Source: Escherichia phage vB_EcoS_SP8. From it: a stretch of DNA of 57,585 bases. The notes under the pieces are model-generated. The model was not told where the DNA came from and did not search any database. It worked only from the letters and a program-made list of their open reading frames with translations. The stretch is taken from the sequence record MT682705.1; one strand, 5' to 3'. This document shows positions 24,489 to 49,487 of this stretch, one piece after another. Position 1 is the first letter of the stretch. Each line of letters opens with the position of its first letter. The translations under genes were made by a program, and so were the position numbers.

Positions 24489-24620
24489 TGTTTATTGTTA
24501 CACGCGTTATTATTTTTTATTTGATTAGTGTGCTATCTATTACATGACTATACTATACCGTCCAGTGTAATTACATCTGTTACTATCCACCTGCCCACTA
24601 TATGCTGTCTATGTATGTGC

Positions 24621-24690
24621 TACCTGGTATTTCCGGCGTGTGCTGTTACCTGGTATTTTCAGCACGCTCGCGCTACCTGGTATTTCCGGC
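24621..24690. repeat. three direct repeats TACCTGGTATTTCCGGC at 26-27 bp spacing
   Basis: copies at about 24621, 24647 and 24674 (middle copy with 3 mismatches); upstream of the early promoter. Confidence 0.6.
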
Positions 24691-24768
24691 ACACCATCTA
24701 CTGCATAGTCCCGGATGTTATTATTATGAAACACAACTAAAAAAGTTCTAAAATATTGCAGATAATAG

Positions 24769-24797
24769 TTGCATCTGATACCCTGCTGTCATATTAT
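24769..24797 (+). promoter_or_regulatory. candidate sigma70-type early promoter
   Basis: TTGCAT, 17-bp spacer, TATTAT; followed by a 5' UTR hairpin (AAGCGGG...CCCGCTT) and RBS GGGAGA before the ATG at 24873. Confidence 0.45.
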
Positions 24798-25233: not shown

Positions 25234-25254
25234 AACAACATGGAGATATTCACA

Positions 25255-25734
25255 ATGGTTACTATCACCCGTGTAGCAAAAGACGCTCGCTTCTTCGCCA
25301 CTATGTCTAACGCTCGCCGCGCCTTGAAAAAGGTTCTGGATGTAGACACAGCGACAGCTAACAGCTTTATTCACCAGGAACCGCACGAAGACGGTGGCCG
25401 CTACTGGTTCAGCGAAAGCGCCGTTAATAAGGCGGCTAGCGATCTGGTTGAAGCTGATAAAGCAACTGTCGTGGAAGTGACCACACAACAAGCTCCGGTC
25501 GCTCCCGCTAAAAGTAAAACGCGCAGCGAAACGCGCAACGGGGTCCGTCGCCCGATCAAAGGTAAATGCGCAGACGTTTGGAACGCTCTGGATAACATGT
25601 TACCTAATGGTGTGCCAACTATTGGTAACGTCCGTGACCTTGCGAAAGCTAATGGCTGGAATATTAATAACGCAACGATTGAATTCTACGCATGGCGTAA
25701 ATTCAACGGGCTCAATAATAAAGAGGGCAATTAA
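25255..25734 (+). CDS. hypothetical early protein
   Basis: start at ATG (MVTITRV) preceded by GGAGA. Confidence 0.4.
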   Translation: MVTITRVAKDARFFATMSNARRALKKVLDVDTATANSFIHQEPHEDGGRYWFSESAVNKAASDLVEADKATVVEVTTQQAPVAPAKSKTRSETRNGVRRPIKGKCADVWNALDNMLPNGVPTIGNVRDLAKANGWNINNATIEFYAWRKFNGLNNKEGN

Positions 25735-44481: not shown

Positions 44482-44721
44482 ATGGCAAAGATGACGTTTA
44501 GAAGTGACGACTATTCACCGGAAGATGGTGAATGGAAGACTTTTAAAGAGTGGGAGGCGTTAGGTTACGGTGTAATTAAAGGAGAAAGAGCTAAACGATT
44601 TATTCATGGTGTAGCAGTTTTTCACGAAAGTCAAGTAATCAATATTGAAGACGAGTTTGAAAATTACATGCGTGAAGAACTACGTGGAATGTATTGTGGG
44701 CCCGAATGGTGGAAGGATTAA
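44482..44721 (+). CDS. hypothetical protein
   Basis: 79-codon ORF starting at ATG (MAKMTF). Confidence 0.35.
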   Translation: MAKMTFRSDDYSPEDGEWKTFKEWEALGYGVIKGERAKRFIHGVAVFHESQVINIEDEFENYMREELRGMYCGPEWWKD

Positions 44722-44722
44722 T

Positions 44723-45445
44723 ATGTACGTCTTAATTGATTACGATCGGATGCAGGTATTAGCCAAACATCCAAACTTCCAACGTCTTCATGAGTATGGA
44801 ATTCTATGCTGTAGCGAAAGTTCTGTAGTTCTTCCGTTAGAAGTTGAAGAACTGTATAAAGAGTTTGATGATGTGCAAATGCAGCTTTTGTACATCAACT
44901 TAACGGGTAATAAGCAAGGTGCTTTATATCCAAAGAAAATGATCAGTAAGATCATCCATTACTTTTTAAATGAAATACCGGAGACAGTAATAGATGCGGA
45001 TGTGGCTGAACAAGCGGACTGGGCAATTGCTAGTAATAAAGAGGGTGAGTGCATGTACCGCGAAGGCAGCTCTGTTCCAGATTTGGGGGAGGAGCCTAAT
45101 ATTCAAGTACGGAATGATAGTTCATTGGAATCCGCCATCATTGACGGCCCAACCGTACAAACAAATATGGGCATACAAGGGGCATGGACACCGACAAGAG
45201 AGCGGCAAGGTACTAGCACACCGGCAAACGAAAAACGTGCCGCAACGTCGCGTACAGCCGGCACTCGCGATATTATTTTCGCTGTTGCTGACGAAATGTG
45301 GAAAGAAGCTGGTGAACCTCGTGACAAGAAGGAAATCCTTCAGCTTAGAAAACAAATGATGGATCGTTTAGAGGCACAAGGTGTGAAGCGTAATACATCA
45401 AGTAATACATTAGGGGTCTGGGTAAAAGAACGTGGCTTAAATTAA
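44723..45445 (+). CDS. hypothetical protein
   Basis: 240-codon ORF starting at ATG (MYVLIDYD). Confidence 0.35.
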   Translation: MYVLIDYDRMQVLAKHPNFQRLHEYGILCCSESSVVLPLEVEELYKEFDDVQMQLLYINLTGNKQGALYPKKMISKIIHYFLNEIPETVIDADVAEQADWAIASNKEGECMYREGSSVPDLGEEPNIQVRNDSSLESAIIDGPTVQTNMGIQGAWTPTRERQGTSTPANEKRAATSRTAGTRDIIFAVADEMWKEAGEPRDKKEILQLRKQMMDRLEAQGVKRNTSSNTLGVWVKERGLN

Positions 45446-45457
45446 TTAACTAAAATA

Positions 45458-45486
45458 TTGCATAGTTCTTTTAGAGGGGTTATAGT
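45458..45486 (+). promoter_or_regulatory. candidate sigma70-type promoter
   Basis: TTGCAT, 17-bp spacer, TATAGT; shares the AATATTGCA context with the early promoter at 24769. Confidence 0.5.
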
Positions 45487-45541
45487 GCAACCACTTAGAA
45501 CGTAGTTCACAACCAATAACCACACTGTGAGGATTTAAATC

Positions 45542-46366
45542 ATGGCTAAAGAGAAAACTCCAGAGCAACTGGAAGCAGAAGAAGCAGCAAAGAAAGCAGC
45601 AAAAGAAGCTGAAGCAAAGAAAAAACGTGAAGCTGAAGAAAAAGCAGCACGTGAATTGCAGGCTAAAGTTGATGCCGCAATGAACGAAGCCACTGCCGGT
45701 TACAATGTGATCGAAGGTGTTGTGTCCGCTGTTAAAGAACAGTTTGACACTCTGCACGAAGGTTCGTTGCTGGACGAAGTTAAAGCAGTTGAGAGCGTAG
45801 TTACCGCTCAACTGAAGACCGCTAAAGAAGGTCTGAAAGCTGTTAAAGCAGCAGTACGTAAAGTTAAAGACAACGATCAACTGAAAACTGCCGTTGCAGC
45901 ATCTGAAGATCTGGTTTCCGGTGTTGAAGCCACTCTGAAAGATGTTAAAGGTCGTGTATCCGCTGCCCGCGAAGCCACTAAAGCCGCTGAAAAAGCGAAA
46001 CTTGACGCTGAACGCGCTGAGAAGAAACGTCTGCAGGACGAAGAGCGTGCTCGTAAAGCAGTAGAACGCGAAGCTAAGAAAGAGCCTGAACAGAACGGTA
46101 TTCGCAAGCCTGGTGTTGGTACTCTGTGCCGTGCTGCATGGGATATCTTTGACGCTGTGACCCTGGAGCTGGGTCAGACTGCACCGATCAGCTACGTTCT
46201 GCCTGTTGCACTGGACAAAGGCCTGAACGAAGCGAACGTTAAAGCGGAATATGCTCGCTGGAAGAAATACATGGGCATTACTGGTCGCGTATCCGTTCCA
46301 GTACCTGCTAATATTGCACAAGCGGCCGCTAACGTAGAAATTCCGTCTCAGAAAACTGCAGAGTAA
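45542..46366 (+). CDS. hypothetical Lys/Ala/Glu-rich helical protein, predicted highly expressed
   Basis: own promoter, RBS GAGGA, strong downstream terminator; codon choice biased to CTG, CGT, GGT, GAA, AAA. Confidence 0.5.
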   Translation: MAKEKTPEQLEAEEAAKKAAKEAEAKKKREAEEKAARELQAKVDAAMNEATAGYNVIEGVVSAVKEQFDTLHEGSLLDEVKAVESVVTAQLKTAKEGLKAVKAAVRKVKDNDQLKTAVAASEDLVSGVEATLKDVKGRVSAAREATKAAEKAKLDAERAEKKRLQDEERARKAVEREAKKEPEQNGIRKPGVGTLCRAAWDIFDAVTLELGQTAPISYVLPVALDKGLNEANVKAEYARWKKYMGITGRVSVPVPANIAQAAANVEIPSQKTAE

Positions 46367-46390
46367 TCTGTAGATACTTCGGAAACTCAG

Positions 46391-46411
46391 AAGGGGCATT
46401 TACTGCCCCTT
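46391..46411 (+). terminator. rho-independent terminator
   Basis: stem AAGGGGCA / TGCCCCTT with 5-nt loop followed by TGTT. Confidence 0.55.
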
Positions 46412-46434
46412 TGTTATCTTACCCCGAGGTTCAA

Positions 46435-47311: not shown

Positions 47312-48070
47312 ATGAATAAGCATATTCAATTACTCGGTCAAATTGTTCCACAAAATGTGTTAAACCAGTGTCTGTTTGATGAAGACGGATTTGTAAAACA
47401 TTATGTGACCACAGTTTCTCAGGCGGCGTCCAATACAGCTCTTGCATCTGTAATTCGAGAAGGGTATTTAGTAGATGTCTTGAACGATATCAGTCCCGAA
47501 CTCACTGTCTTTGTTGAAGGTATGGATGGACATGATCTTATGAACTTAAAGACAGTCTACAATACGCATGTAACGCCTCCACGTAACGCACTTTACAAAT
47601 GGCGCATTAGTGCTTCTGTTAGCGGAACACAGAAAGTGGAAGAAGTGGAAGAGATGGTTAAAAATCATAAAACTTCTTCTGAAAAATTAGCTGGTATCAT
47701 GGAAGATGTACTTTCGAGCGTGTTTAAAGTTGATCGTAACAAAGAAGGCGAGCCGGAACTATTCGTTAATGACGCGTTTGTTAATAAGGATTGCATTCAG
47801 GAGATTAAAGCTCCACGTCCGAATAAATATATGCGCAAAATCAAAAGTTTTGAATCACATGACATTAACGGTAGCCCGATTGAAATTGATGTGTGGGTTG
47901 ACGTGTACGATGTAATTAAAGCATTCAATGTAACCAGTGGACCTATGCAACACGCACTGAAGAAAGTGTTGTGTGCTGGTGAGCGCGGTCATAAAGACTT
48001 ACTGGAAGACCTCAACGATATTATTGCATCCGTTGAGCGTGAAATTGAAATGGTTAAAGAAGGTAAATAA
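47312..48070 (+). CDS. hypothetical protein embedded in the deazaguanine cluster
   Basis: 252-aa ORF between queE and gat-queC; no motif recognised. Confidence 0.45.
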   Translation: MNKHIQLLGQIVPQNVLNQCLFDEDGFVKHYVTTVSQAASNTALASVIREGYLVDVLNDISPELTVFVEGMDGHDLMNLKTVYNTHVTPPRNALYKWRISASVSGTQKVEEVEEMVKNHKTSSEKLAGIMEDVLSSVFKVDRNKEGEPELFVNDAFVNKDCIQEIKAPRPNKYMRKIKSFESHDINGSPIEIDVWVDVYDVIKAFNVTSGPMQHALKKVLCAGERGHKDLLEDLNDIIASVEREIEMVKEGK

Positions 48071-48071
48071 T

Positions 48072-49487
48072 ATGTGCTCCATCTTTGGTGTTATTACTAA
48101 TGGTCAACCTGAACGTGAAATTATTCGTAACGATGTCAGTGATCTTATTAAAGCTAGTATCAGCCGTGGTCGGGATGGTCTTGGTGTACGCTTTACGCAT
48201 GGTGACCACAGTATACACCCGCAACGTATCGTTCGTGTCGGTAAGGGAACAACTCAGGAACGTCTTGTTAAAATTGAGCGCATTGCGTCCCGTGCTGGGG
48301 ACATTGGTAGCTTCACAATGATTGGTAACGCTCGTGCTGAACCGACTACAGAGTGGGTCGTTGACAAGAACGAGTGGGACCAGCAACCGTATCATATGGA
48401 TGGTTGGACTATTGTTCATAACGGTACTATTGCGAACGATAAAGACCTTCGTACCTATGCACTACAGACTAAAATTGATAGTGCTGCGATTGTTGAACAG
48501 TTAGCAGAATGTACACTTTCAGCGGATGAAATGTGTTTGTCTGACTTCAATTACCTGTACAGTGTATTTCATGAAGTTATTCGCAAATTGAAAGGTAGCT
48601 TCGCAATTCTTGCAACACATGATTCCTTTCCAGGATGTGTGTTTGCAGCATGTAATTATCGTCCAATTTGGATTGGTAAGACTCAGACTGGTATGTATTT
48701 TGCCAGCCAAGAAGATATGCTTCCAACCCGTGCCATTAAACAGATGCTGAAACCTTACACCTGCAATGTGGTCACATCTACTGATGTATGCAATGAAGTT
48801 GATCTTATTCCAAATAAGCAGACTCAACGCGCGTTAGTTGTCGCCAGTGGTGGTATGGACAGTACGGTTGCAGCTCAGATGTGTAAGTCCAATGGTTTAG
48901 ATGTCACTTTAATTAACTTCCAGTATGGTTGTCGTGCAGAAACTAATGAGCTGTATGCTATTCGTAAGATTGCGGAGGTGATGGGGGTTCCATTAATTGA
49001 ATTTCCAATCCCGATTTATGATAAGAAAGATAGTCCATTATTTGATCAAGATGCTACAATTGCTGGCGGTGAAGAAGGAGCTGAGTTCGCGCATGAATGG
49101 GTTCCAGCTCGTAACCTTGTGATGCTTTCTGTTGCTACTGCATACGCAGAAGCTAACGGTTTCGACTATATTGTTCTTGGTAACAACTTAGAAGAAGCTG
49201 GAGCCTATCCGGACAACGAGCCTGAGTTCATTAATCGCTTTAATCAAGTGTTACCGTTCGCTGTAGGCGACGGTAAGCGCGTTGAAGTGCTCATGCCAGT
49301 AGGTAACTTAATGAAGCACGAAATTGTCGCTACAGGTCTGCGTTTAGGGGCCCCGTTGGAGCACACCTGGAGCTGTTACCGTAACGGTGATCTGCATTGC
49401 GGTACTTGTGGCCCTTGCATGATGCGTCGGACTGCGTTTAATATTAATAACGCACAAGAAGTTATTAAATACGAAAGCGAGGAATAA
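48072..49487 (+). CDS. gat-queC: glutamine amidotransferase-QueC fusion (Gat-QueC)
   Basis: N-terminus MCSIFGV (Cys2 nucleophile of class II amidotransferases, as in AsnB); PP-loop SGGMDS; C-terminal zinc motif WSCYRNGDLHCGTCGPC; track ORF starts upstream at a non-ATG codon. Confidence 0.8.
   Translation: MCSIFGVITNGQPEREIIRNDVSDLIKASISRGRDGLGVRFTHGDHSIHPQRIVRVGKGTTQERLVKIERIASRAGDIGSFTMIGNARAEPTTEWVVDKNEWDQQPYHMDGWTIVHNGTIANDKDLRTYALQTKIDSAAIVEQLAECTLSADEMCLSDFNYLYSVFHEVIRKLKGSFAILATHDSFPGCVFAACNYRPIWIGKTQTGMYFASQEDMLPTRAIKQMLKPYTCNVVTSTDVCNEVDLIPNKQTQRALVVASGGMDSTVAAQMCKSNGLDVTLINFQYGCRAETNELYAIRKIAEVMGVPLIEFPIPIYDKKDSPLFDQDATIAGGEEGAEFAHEWVPARNLVMLSVATAYAEANGFDYIVLGNNLEEAGAYPDNEPEFINRFNQVLPFAVGDGKRVEVLMPVGNLMKHEIVATGLRLGAPLEHTWSCYRNGDLHCGTCGPCMMRRTAFNINNAQEVIKYESEE

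What the first reader, a model, noticed from the sequence alone, without database searches (positions are those of the whole stretch)
45458..46411. Self-contained, apparently highly expressed gene encoding a Lys/Ala/Glu-rich helical protein
This 274-aa ORF has its own near-consensus promoter, a strong RBS and a strong terminator, and its codon choice looks like that of highly expressed host genes. The product has a long charged helical N-terminal region (EAEEAAKKAAKEAEAKKKREAEEKAARE...) and a compact C-terminal region. I cannot assign a function; candidates are a nucleoid-associated or DNA-coating protein, possibly linked to the modified DNA, or a host-derived gene.
Basis: partly seen in the sequence, partly recalled or inferred. 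Interest (0 to 1): 0.6.

Follow-up and report, generated by a model that had tools for sequence, protein, structure and literature searches.

The report
Hyper-expressed phage rod protein, novel basic domain
This is a real, self-contained gene of a 9g-like coliphage, built for very high expression; it encodes a helical rod ending in a small basic domain that has never been characterised, and its function (most likely binding DNA in bulk) is still untested.

Summary
ORF 45542-46366 (274 aa; homologue of phage 9g gene 00009) has the strongest E. coli-type codon bias of 60 window ORFs. Its CAI is 0.61, against 0.36±0.03 expected for the same protein with window-average codons. It has a GAGGA Shine-Dalgarno and an intrinsic terminator. 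Its promoter is only 8/12 to consensus, but a TTGC-N18-20-TAnnnT promoter sits 37-66 nt upstream of the start in 42 of 68 diverged relatives, against 1.7% of random windows.

The gene always lies between the helicase and the 7-deazaguanine genes, but published work shows DpdA plus Gat-QueC modify DNA without it. Host origin is refuted.

Best guess, at about 35%: an abundant DNA-binding architectural protein. About 5% of orthologues carry signal peptides, which argues against that and is unexplained.

The parts
45450..45462 (+). A-rich 13-mer CTAAAATATTGCA that overlaps the -35 hexamer; the same 13-mer occurs at the early promoter region (24748-24760)
   Evidence: Two exact copies in the window. 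An exact 13-mer is expected about 0.002 times by chance in 57.6 kb on both strands.
45458..45486 (+). Sigma-70-type promoter TTGCAT-17 nt-TATAGT
   Evidence: 8/12 to consensus and not called by the scan. A TTGC-N18-20-TAnnnT element ends 37-66 nt upstream of the ATG in 42/68 distinct related loci, against 57/3400 random windows. An extended -10 (TGn) is present in 24/42 relatives but not in the window.
45494..45541 (+). Predicted 5' leader of about 48 nt (start site not mapped): small hairpin GAACGTAGTTC at 45498-45508, then a C/A-rich stretch, then SD GAGGA at 45529-45533
   Evidence: Read. 5'-proximal hairpins are enriched in relatives (mean z -1.06, p 5e-5), but the one in the window is weak, -1.6 kcal/mol. 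No Rfam match.
45542..46366 (+). CDS, 274 aa, 29.6 kDa, pI 8.4; homologue of 9g_00009; PHROG 11298
45560..46075 (+). Residues 7-178: three long helices (7-68, 77-107, 112-178) predicted to pack as an antiparallel rod. The Lys/Ala/Glu-rich ends pair with each other. Net charge 0. A conserved N-terminal KTPEQL motif looks like a helix cap (inference).
   Evidence: AlphaFold2 pLDDT 93-98 over this part. Foldseek finds only generic helical bundles. Charges. N-terminal motif conserved in orthologues.
46076..46291 (+). Residues 179-250: conserved basic domain. An Arg-rich β-hairpin (PEQNGIRKP) is followed by three helices (195-210, 216-225, 230-243). Invariant residues: P182 N185 P190 W200 D204 Y237 A238 W240 G248.
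46292..46363 (+). Residues 251-274: low-confidence Pro/Ala-rich tail
   Evidence: pLDDT 42-79.
46390..46412 (+). Intrinsic terminator, 9-bp stem, 24 nt after the stop codon; the queE SD follows directly after it
   Evidence: Annotated independently in phage HdK1. The Klebsiella-phage relative L012 keeps a stem with a different sequence. Terminator-like hairpins occur in 39/66 relatives against 56/330 random windows.
25240..25734 (+). Paralogue (164 aa; 9g_00037; PHROG 17772), second gene of the early operon, carrying the same C-terminal domain at about 25519-25722
   Evidence: hmmsearch E 1.2e-8. Sequence. hhalign of A2 against A4, 99.8%. PHROG cross-hits. CAI 0.40, fifth highest in the window.
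44723..45445 (+). Upstream neighbour (240 aa from Met27 of the listed ORF; PHROG 7864), whose C-terminus (about 45245-45442) is a diverged copy of the same domain
   Evidence: hhalign probability 75%, E 2.6e-5 over 58 columns. The three-domain protein P0121 hits PHROG 7864 positions 177-241 at E 6e-21. BLASTP alone finds nothing.

Best explanation
Shown or well supported. The gene is a monocistronic, very highly expressed cassette of a Nonagvirus (9g-like) phage, located in the early/replication half of the genome. By motif, it is transcribed by host sigma-70 RNA polymerase from its own promoter. It is translated from a good SD with E. coli-optimal codons. It is insulated from the downstream queE-dpdA genes by a terminator. 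The product is a helical rod of about 170 residues carrying a basic domain of about 70 residues: an Arg-rich hairpin plus a three-helix bundle. This domain defines a large, phage-restricted, uncharacterised family, and two other proteins of the same phage carry it.

Inferred. The basic domain docks on an abundant polyanion, most likely double-stranded DNA. Helix 3 (N-x2-N-x3-E-Y-A-R-W-R/K-K) would act as the recognition helix and the NG-x-R-R-P hairpin as a groove or backbone arm. The rod would provide self-association or spacing. The protein, made in stoichiometric rather than catalytic amounts, would then coat or organise replicating phage DNA, or the host nucleoid. The paralogues would use the same domain as a tether for other N-terminal modules.
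For: Expression. CAI is first of 60 ORFs and z=10.5 after controlling for composition. Orthologues rank first in eight other enterobacterial-phage loci. Orthologues over-use their locus's major codons in 51/56 loci. The promoter footprint is conserved (42/68 against 1.7%) with TGn in 24/42. An SD at optimal spacing precedes every orthologue. Terminator-like hairpins are enriched.

Charge. The domain is net positive in about 98% of 390 instances, mean +3.5.

Multivalency. Some relatives have 2-3 tandem copies of the domain and no helical rod (P0121, P0244, P0122). In locus L100 one three-domain gene replaces the three consecutive domain-bearing genes.

Context. The gene always sits inside the replication module: helicase, this gene, queE..dpdA, clamp, PolA. 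One relative fuses the module to a CxxC...CxxC zinc-ribbon-like segment, which implies a cytoplasmic location (P0259).

Not a virion protein. It is not reported among the virion proteins found by mass spectrometry for Vid5 (PMC6266253) or R7M (PMC8265664).

Against: About 5% of orthologues (12 of 266 representatives) begin with classical Sec signal peptides preceded by a good SD. That would place the same domain in the periplasm.

The rod is charge-neutral, not basic like H1-type histone-like tails. High expression is inferred from sequence only; I found no transcriptomic or proteomic data in the literature searches I ran.
Confidence: 0.35

Rival explanations
1. Protein-protein adaptor. The conserved domain binds one abundant host or phage protein (RNA polymerase, a replisome part, the ribosome) rather than DNA. 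The three paralogues deliver different N-terminal modules to that partner, and the rod protein acts as a stoichiometric inhibitor or scaffold. This would also cover the 'transcriptional activator' label found in some GenBank records.
Against: The domain is consistently basic. Tandem 2-3x repeats are more typical of polymer binding. The family spans hosts from Enterobacteria to Rhizobium and cyanobacteria, so the partner would have to be extremely conserved. The 'FtrA'/activator label has no Pfam or NCBIfam support.
Confidence: 0.2
2. Envelope or membrane-associated protein. The basic, Trp/Tyr-containing domain binds the inner membrane or an envelope component that can be reached from either face, and the Lys/Ala/Glu helix is a TolA-domain-II-like spacer. 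The function could be superinfection exclusion, membrane stabilisation or control of lysis timing.
For: Sec-type signal peptides occur in about 5% of orthologues, some followed by Pro-rich and then KAE-rich spacers, a TonB/TolA-like layout. They sit in the same syntenic slot and have good SDs. The composition resembles TolA domain II, and JGI names one orthologue 'membrane protein involved in colicin uptake'.
Against: The window protein and about 95% of orthologues have no signal peptide or transmembrane segment. There is no TolA or TonB Pfam or NCBIfam match. One relative carries a zinc-ribbon-like CxxC pair, which implies the cytoplasm. The gene lies in the replication module, not the lysis cassette.
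Confidence: 0.12
3. Accessory factor of the 7-deazaguanine DNA modification. The protein would present DNA to DpdA, raise the extent of dG+ substitution, read or protect modified DNA, or carry the preQ0/G+ base.
For: In all fetched viral loci with enough downstream flank, the gene lies immediately upstream of queE. The same holds in distant isolates from Pseudomonas, Vibrio and Microcystis, and in the same neighbourhood in a Rhizobium phage. In L100 the domain-bearing gene still sits next to a dpdA-like gene even though queE/C/D and folE are absent. In plasmids DpdA plus Gat-QueC reached 9-18% of G (PMC6884629), which leaves room for a helper.
Against: 9g DpdA plus Gat-QueC are sufficient for dG+ insertion in E. 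coli without this gene (PMC6884629). The synteny covers the whole replication module, so it does not single out the modification genes. Paralogues with the same domain lie elsewhere: in the early operon of this window and after PolA in a cyanophage. In my protein search of the phage records the listed hits were all phages of Gram-negative bacteria and cyanobacteria, with no mycobacteriophage or streptococcal phage among them. By my recollection of the literature, DpdA also occurs in such other phage lineages; I did not test this.
Confidence: 0.12
4. A gene recently acquired from the host, which would explain the host-like codon usage.
For: Only the E. coli-like codon usage.
Against: No blastn match in 5,426 complete E. 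coli genomes. Only 7 matches in 185,579 species genomes, on contigs that look like phage DNA. Orthologues exist in phages of many host classes, always at the same genomic position. The high CAI is shared by orthologues only 57-60% identical, so it reflects selection and not recent transfer.
Confidence: 0.01

Closest known systems
H-NS / MvaT-type nucleoid-associated proteins
   Same: Small, abundant proteins from a monocistronic gene. An N-terminal helical self-association region is joined to a compact basic C-terminal domain that carries an Arg-containing loop (from general knowledge).
   Different: No sequence match to Histone_HNS. The predicted fold differs: three helices after a hairpin, against the β-β-α of H-NS. 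The rod is an intramolecular three-helix bundle in the model. DNA binding is untested.
KfrA of IncP plasmids (HTH plus long Ala-rich coiled coil)
   Same: A small helix-turn-helix-type domain attached to a long Ala/Glu/Lys-rich all-helical tail (from general knowledge).
   Different: The domain order is reversed in most members. No KfrA_N Pfam match. Phage context instead of plasmid context.
Bacillus phage phi29 p16.7 and p6; SPO1 TF1
   Same: Early, very abundant phage proteins that bind phage DNA non-specifically and organise replication. p16.7 is a membrane anchor, a coiled coil and a small helical DNA-binding domain, which would even accommodate the orthologues with hydrophobic N-termini. 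TF1 prefers modified (hmU) DNA (from general knowledge).
TolA domain II / ER-K-type single alpha-helices
   Same: Lys/Ala/Glu-rich, highly charged long helix used as a spacer. The composition explains the spurious database names and the low-complexity Pfam hits such as CAF1A_acidic.
   Different: The window protein has no transmembrane anchor and no TolA domain III. The resemblance is compositional only.
PHROG families 11298, 18634, 21588, 17772, 22313, 7864 (all 'unknown function')
   Same: The target is a full-length member of PHROG 11298 (E 2e-128). The other families share its C-terminal domain.
   Different: PHROGs keeps them as separate, unannotated families. The shared domain and its three copies per genome are not recorded there.

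Membership tests
PHROG 11298 (phage protein family, function unknown) | Full-length profile match | tested here: met
   E 2.2e-128 over residues 1-274.
Winged-helix / helix-turn-helix DNA-binding folds | Three-helix core with a recognition helix, and structural similarity to solved WH/HTH domains | tested here: inconclusive
Winged-helix / helix-turn-helix DNA-binding folds | Demonstrated nucleic-acid binding | not testable with these tools
   Only indirect evidence: the domain is net positive in about 98% of 390 instances.
H-NS family | Match to the Histone_HNS profile and its C-terminal motif | tested here: not met
   No Pfam hit at E<=1 for the target. H-NS is not among the 25 families most often matched by 142 family members.
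HU/IHF family (SPO1 TF1 type) | Match to the Bac_DNA_binding profile or to solved HU/IHF chains | tested here: not met
KfrA | N-terminal KfrA_N DNA-binding domain | tested here: not met
   No Pfam hit. The architecture is analogous only.
TolA | N-terminal membrane anchor and C-terminal TolA domain III | tested here: not met
   The window protein has no hydrophobic N-terminus. No TolA model hit in Pfam or NCBIfam. The helical part is similar in composition only.
FtrA/AraC-type transcriptional activator (label in some GenBank records) | AraC-type HTH and DJ-1/PfpI domain | tested here: not met
   No such Pfam or NCBIfam match. The label appears in the records of CAjan, CSP1 and others.
Phage 7-deazaguanine modification module (FolE, QueD, QueE, QueC/Gat-QueC, DpdA) | Conserved adjacency to the module | tested here: met
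   The gene is immediately upstream of queE in all fetched viral loci with downstream flank and in most isolates checked. It is separated from queE by four small genes in a Rhizobium phage.
Phage 7-deazaguanine modification module (FolE, QueD, QueE, QueC/Gat-QueC, DpdA) | Required for insertion of the modified base | tested here: not met
   Published experiment: 9g dpdA plus gat-queC alone give dG+ at 9-18% of G in E. coli plasmids (PMC6884629, read).
Homing-endonuclease-associated repeat (PF18780), a lead from one weak hit | Profile match above threshold in several members | tested here: not met
   One relative (P0207) matched at E 0.0084, 16.9 bits against a cut-off of 26. It is not among the top families in 142 members, and a hit at that level is expected by chance after about 150 proteins scanned.

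The most novel reading that the evidence does not exclude
Queuovirinae-type phages encode a previously unrecognised class of abundant DNA-organising proteins. These are built on a phage-specific basic three-helix domain that is present three times per genome, as three genes or as one three-domain gene. The hyper-expressed rod-shaped member would coat or compartmentalise the replicating, 7-deazaguanine-modified genome. That would make it a new kind of phage 'histone' whose domain also tethers early take-over proteins to DNA.
Probability: 0.2. Interest if true: 0.75.

Novelty: new variant of a known kind. Interest (0 to 1): 0.55.

Why it matters
By sequence criteria this is probably the most strongly expressed gene of a whole phage subfamily that includes phages from the BASEL collection. 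Yet it is annotated 'hypothetical', or mislabelled 'transcriptional activator'.

It defines a domain family of about 1,900 protein clusters that is absent from Pfam and has no solved relative. If the domain binds DNA, it would be a new phage chromatin or replication-organising protein, and a natural candidate for a reader or protector of deazaguanine-modified DNA. If it does not, the coexistence of cytoplasmic and signal-peptide forms points to something less expected.

Either way the gene is an easy and well-defined experimental target: small, soluble-looking and highly expressed. Its promoter-leader-terminator cassette is a compact, conserved expression module.

Tried and rejected
Sequence libraries. 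Pfam, NCBIfam and PDB sequence searches gave nothing for the target, the domain profile or the two paralogues. The Pfam scan of 142 members gave only low-complexity hits such as CAF1A_acidic and Borrelia_P83.

Fold searches. Foldseek of the full-length model against the PDB found only generic helical bundles: designed bundles, syntaxin Habc, GAT, spectrin. The BFVD search found only unannotated family members. The AFDB50 library was unavailable.

PF18780 (HNH_repeat) lead. One hit at E 0.008 among about 150 proteins scanned, so not significant.

Peptidoglycan-binding idea. I considered a PG_binding_1-like domain because of the signal-peptide forms and the modular layout. PG_binding_1 is not among the 25 Pfam families most often matched by 142 members, and the order of the helices does not fit.

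Upstream neighbour. BLASTP between the domain and the upstream ORF found nothing. Homology showed up only with profiles.

Fusions to known domains. The profile search with paralogue domains and the search with the N-terminal module of the upstream gene returned no protein with any Pfam domain.

Literature. I searched for expression, proteomic or escape-mutant data on 9g, BASEL Bas19/20, Seuratvirus and PaMx25-type phages. Nothing concerned this gene.

Other. No Rfam match on the leader. Host origin rejected. The host-independent codon-bias test across 56 loci gave only moderate support: positive in 51/56, but in the top three by |z| in 20/56 against about 10 expected.

Full report
WHAT THE WINDOW IS. 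The 954-nt region is 95-98% identical to 17 phage records: phage 9g, JenK1/JenP1/JenP2, SE1, HdK1, BRET, and ChristophMerian and FritzHoffmann of the BASEL collection. Those whose taxonomy I saw are Nonagvirus, subfamily Queuovirinae. In all of them the gene is annotated 'hypothetical protein'. In HdK1 it is described as similar to 9g_00009, and an intrinsic terminator is annotated just downstream. The local gene order is: ligase, AAA_24 ATPase, DUF669, orf316, SF2 helicase, small ORF, orfU (PHROG 7864), the target, QueE, orf252, Gat-QueC, QueD, FolE, DpdA, clamp, PolA.

CHECK OF THE OBSERVATION. The ORF is 45542-46366, ATG start, 274 aa. The protein is 19% Ala, 12.8% Lys and 12.8% Glu, 29.6 kDa, pI 8.4.

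Codon usage. I used the Sharp & Li E. coli weights, recalled from memory because the Biopython table was missing. The CAI is 0.612, the highest of 60 ORFs in the window. The median is 0.29, the putative major capsid gene has 0.52 and the DUF669 gene 0.47; z=4.6. A Lys/Glu/Ala-rich protein in an A+T-rich phage could score high trivially, so I re-drew the codons of the same protein from the window's average usage. That gives an expected CAI of 0.355±0.025, with a maximum of 0.457 in 5,000 draws, so the observed value is 10.5 sd higher. Leu CTG is 15/18 here against 16% elsewhere. Arg, Gly and Thr use only the optimal codons. In eight further loci of this phage lineage, taken from viral metagenome contigs, the orthologue is again first in its 20-kb locus (CAI 0.52-0.65, z 3.7-4.3). 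Two of these encode proteins closest to Klebsiella phage proteins, one has the genome length of the Pantoea phage Vid5, and several resemble Seurat-type coliphages. A host-independent test on 56 diverse loci is weaker but points the same way. The orthologue over-uses its locus's major codons in 51/56 loci, with median z +2.2 against -0.3 for other genes.

Translation and termination signals. The SD GAGGA lies 8 nt before the ATG. Every orthologue examined has an ATG preceded by a 3-5-nt SD core (at least 4 nt in nearly all) 5-9 nt upstream. The terminator at 46390-46412 has a 9-bp stem. Relatives keep a stem with a different sequence (L012), and terminator-like hairpins follow the gene in 39/66 loci against 17% of random windows.

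Promoter. TTGCAT-17-TATAGT matches only 8 of 12 consensus positions and was not called by the scan, so 'near-consensus' is too strong. Comparison with relatives rescues it. A TTGC-N18-20-TAnnnT element ends 37-66 nt upstream of the start codon in 42 of 68 distinct loci, against 57 of 3,400 random windows from the same loci. In 24 of those 42 it has the TGn extended -10, where about 6% would be expected by chance. In the window, the 13-mer CTAAAATATTGCA that overlaps the -35 recurs exactly at 24748, in the tandem early promoters. The gene therefore appears to use an early-type host-polymerase promoter. Many relatives have a hairpin a few nucleotides into the predicted transcript (mean z -1.06, p 5e-5); the one in the window is weak. 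No Rfam family matches.

THE PROTEIN. AlphaFold2 with a 68-sequence alignment gives mean pLDDT 91. Helices 7-68, 77-107 and 112-178 form a long antiparallel bundle. A short β-hairpin (183-188) and helices 195-210, 216-225 and 230-243 follow, then a low-confidence tail. The rod is charge-neutral and the C-terminal domain is +3. The full model matches only generic helical bundles in the PDB.

SIZE AND MAKE-UP OF THE FAMILY. Full-length homologues are confined to Nonagvirus-like phages. More distant orthologues are 105-295 aa and consist of three parts:
- a conserved N-terminal motif, (D/E)KTxEQLxAE, which looks like a helix cap (my inference);
- a Lys/Ala/Glu-rich helix of variable length;
- the conserved domain, PEQNGIRRPKPxTLCGxAW...GLNExNVxAEYARWRKFxGITGR.

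A profile of the domain finds 1,875 representative clusters at E<=1e-3 among 1.84 billion proteins, 833 of them at E<=1e-10. The domain is net positive in about 98% of 390 instances, mean +3.5.

The same domain occurs in other proteins:
- In the window it is present in the second gene of the early operon (25240-25734; E 1e-8).
- A diverged copy forms the C-terminus of the upstream neighbour orfU. hhalign gives 75% probability, E 2.6e-5. Independently, the three-domain protein P0121 matches PHROG 7864 positions 177-241 at E 6e-21.
- Many relatives have a further paralogue (PHROG 21588) between the helicase and orfU, and sometimes another after PolA.
- Some proteins carry two or three tandem copies and no helical rod (P0121, P0122, P0244). 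In locus L100 a single three-domain gene sits where three consecutive domain-bearing genes usually sit.
- Other metagenomic proteins join the N-terminal module of orfU, or of the early paralogue, to the KAE helix plus domain.

No member carries any known Pfam domain.

CONTEXT. In the fetched viral-contig loci the gene lies between orfU and QueE wherever enough flank is present. The same holds in metagenome contigs and in isolates infecting Pseudomonas, Vibrio and Microcystis. A Rhizobium phage has four small genes in between. In a Synechococcus phage a copy lies after PolA. L100 lacks queE/C/D and folE but keeps a dpdA-like gene two genes downstream.

The family is practically absent from cellular genomes. 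There are 7 matches in 185,579 species genomes, on contigs that look like phage DNA, and no blastn match in 5,426 complete E. coli genomes. Host origin is therefore rejected, and the host-like codons reflect selection.

WHAT IT PROBABLY DOES. Shown or well supported: it is a conserved, monocistronic cassette built for high expression inside the replication module. The product is a helical rod plus a basic three-helix domain, and several proteins of the same phage share that domain. It is not reported among the virion proteins of Vid5 or R7M.

Inferred: a product needed in stoichiometric amounts, a basic HTH-like domain, tandem-repeat variants and a replication-module location together point to binding of an abundant polyanion, most simply DNA. 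The rod would provide self-association or spacing. This resembles phi29 p6 and p16.7, SPO1 TF1, H-NS and KfrA in the way it would work, but it is a member of none of those families (see the membership table). I put this at about 0.35.

EVIDENCE AGAINST, AND THE RIVALS. About 5% of orthologues (12 of 266) start with classical Sec signal peptides, for example MNKIAFLLASAALSVPARAFA|DIDA. These have a good SD in front of that ATG, and some have a Pro-rich spacer. They lie in the same genomic slot and keep the same basic domain. This does not fit a DNA-binding role, and it keeps an envelope or membrane-related reading alive (about 0.12).

A protein-adaptor role (about 0.2) fits the protein-binding WH hits and the shared-module logic. 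A role as a helper of the deazaguanine modification (about 0.12) fits the synteny. Against that, 9g DpdA plus Gat-QueC alone install dG+ in E. coli plasmids at 9-18% of G (PMC6884629), the paralogues lie elsewhere, and the synteny covers the whole replication module.

NOVELTY AND SCORE. The sequences are in databases as hypothetical proteins spread over six unannotated PHROGs. I found nothing in the libraries or papers I searched that describes the shared domain, its three copies per genome, the conserved expression cassette or the signal-peptide subclade. The most likely function is a new variant of a known kind: an abundant phage DNA-organising protein. It is untested. Interest 0.55: a solid, well-defined and experimentally easy target with an open function, but no demonstrated new mechanism.

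Noticed in passing
window 25240-25734 (+): The second gene of the early operon (164 aa; 9g_00037; PHROG 17772) ends in the same basic domain as the target. Its N-terminal module ('SNARRAL' motif) recurs in metagenomic proteins fused to a KAE helix plus the domain, once together with a CxxC...CxxC zinc-ribbon-like segment (P0259).
   Followed up: yes
window 44723-45445 (+): The upstream neighbour (PHROG 7864) has a diverged copy of the same domain at its C-terminus. Several metagenomic proteins fuse its N-terminal module in frame to the KAE helix plus the domain (P0135, P0171, P0176, P0188, P0242, P0266).
   Followed up: partly
window 24748-24797 and 45450-45462: The tandem early promoters are TTGCAG-17-TACCCT (with TGn) and TTGCAT-17-TATTAT. 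The 13-mer CTAAAATATTGCA is identical at the early promoter and in front of the target gene, which suggests a shared UP/-35 element or a shared regulator site.
   Followed up: partly
window 24619-24690: Three 19-nt direct repeats (GCTACCTGGTATTTCCGGC; the middle copy is 84% identical) are spaced 26-27 nt apart in the intergenic region between the divergent early and late operons. They look like iterons or operators.
   Followed up: no
loci L067, L068, L087, L089, L103; proteins P0115, P0123, P0133, P0140, P0142, P0145, P0153, P0156, P0174, P0191, P0218, P0261: About 5% of orthologues carry a Sec-type signal peptide, and some a Pro-rich spacer, while keeping the same domain and the same genomic position. 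No explanation considered here accounts for this.
   Followed up: partly
L100 2280-3170: A related phage contig has one gene with three tandem copies of the domain (P0121) directly after the helicase. A dpdA-like gene, a clamp and PolA follow, but queE, queC, queD and folE are absent.
   Followed up: partly
window 44488-44721 (+): A small ORF (77 aa) between the helicase and the upstream neighbour has a sub-threshold match to the N-terminal domain of the anti-restriction factor ArdC (E 4e-4, 20.9 bits against a cut-off of 22.6).
   Followed up: no
window 45446-46399 (-): A 317-aa ORF lies antisense to the target. Its translation is low-complexity and rich in Phe, Cys and Ser. It is almost certainly an artefact of the GCN/GAA/AAA-rich sense strand and not a gene.
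   Followed up: no
L001 6085-6786 (phage HdK1, MK373794.1): In HdK1 the orthologue is annotated as only 233 aa. The matching stretch is one base longer than in the window (955 against 954 nt), and the domain is split over two reading frames. This points to a frameshift or a sequencing error in that record.
   Followed up: partly
window 47973-48070: The mechanically listed GTG start of Gat-QueC overlaps orf252 by about 100 nt. The HdK1 annotation starts the gene just after orf252, so the real start is probably near 48072.
   Followed up: no
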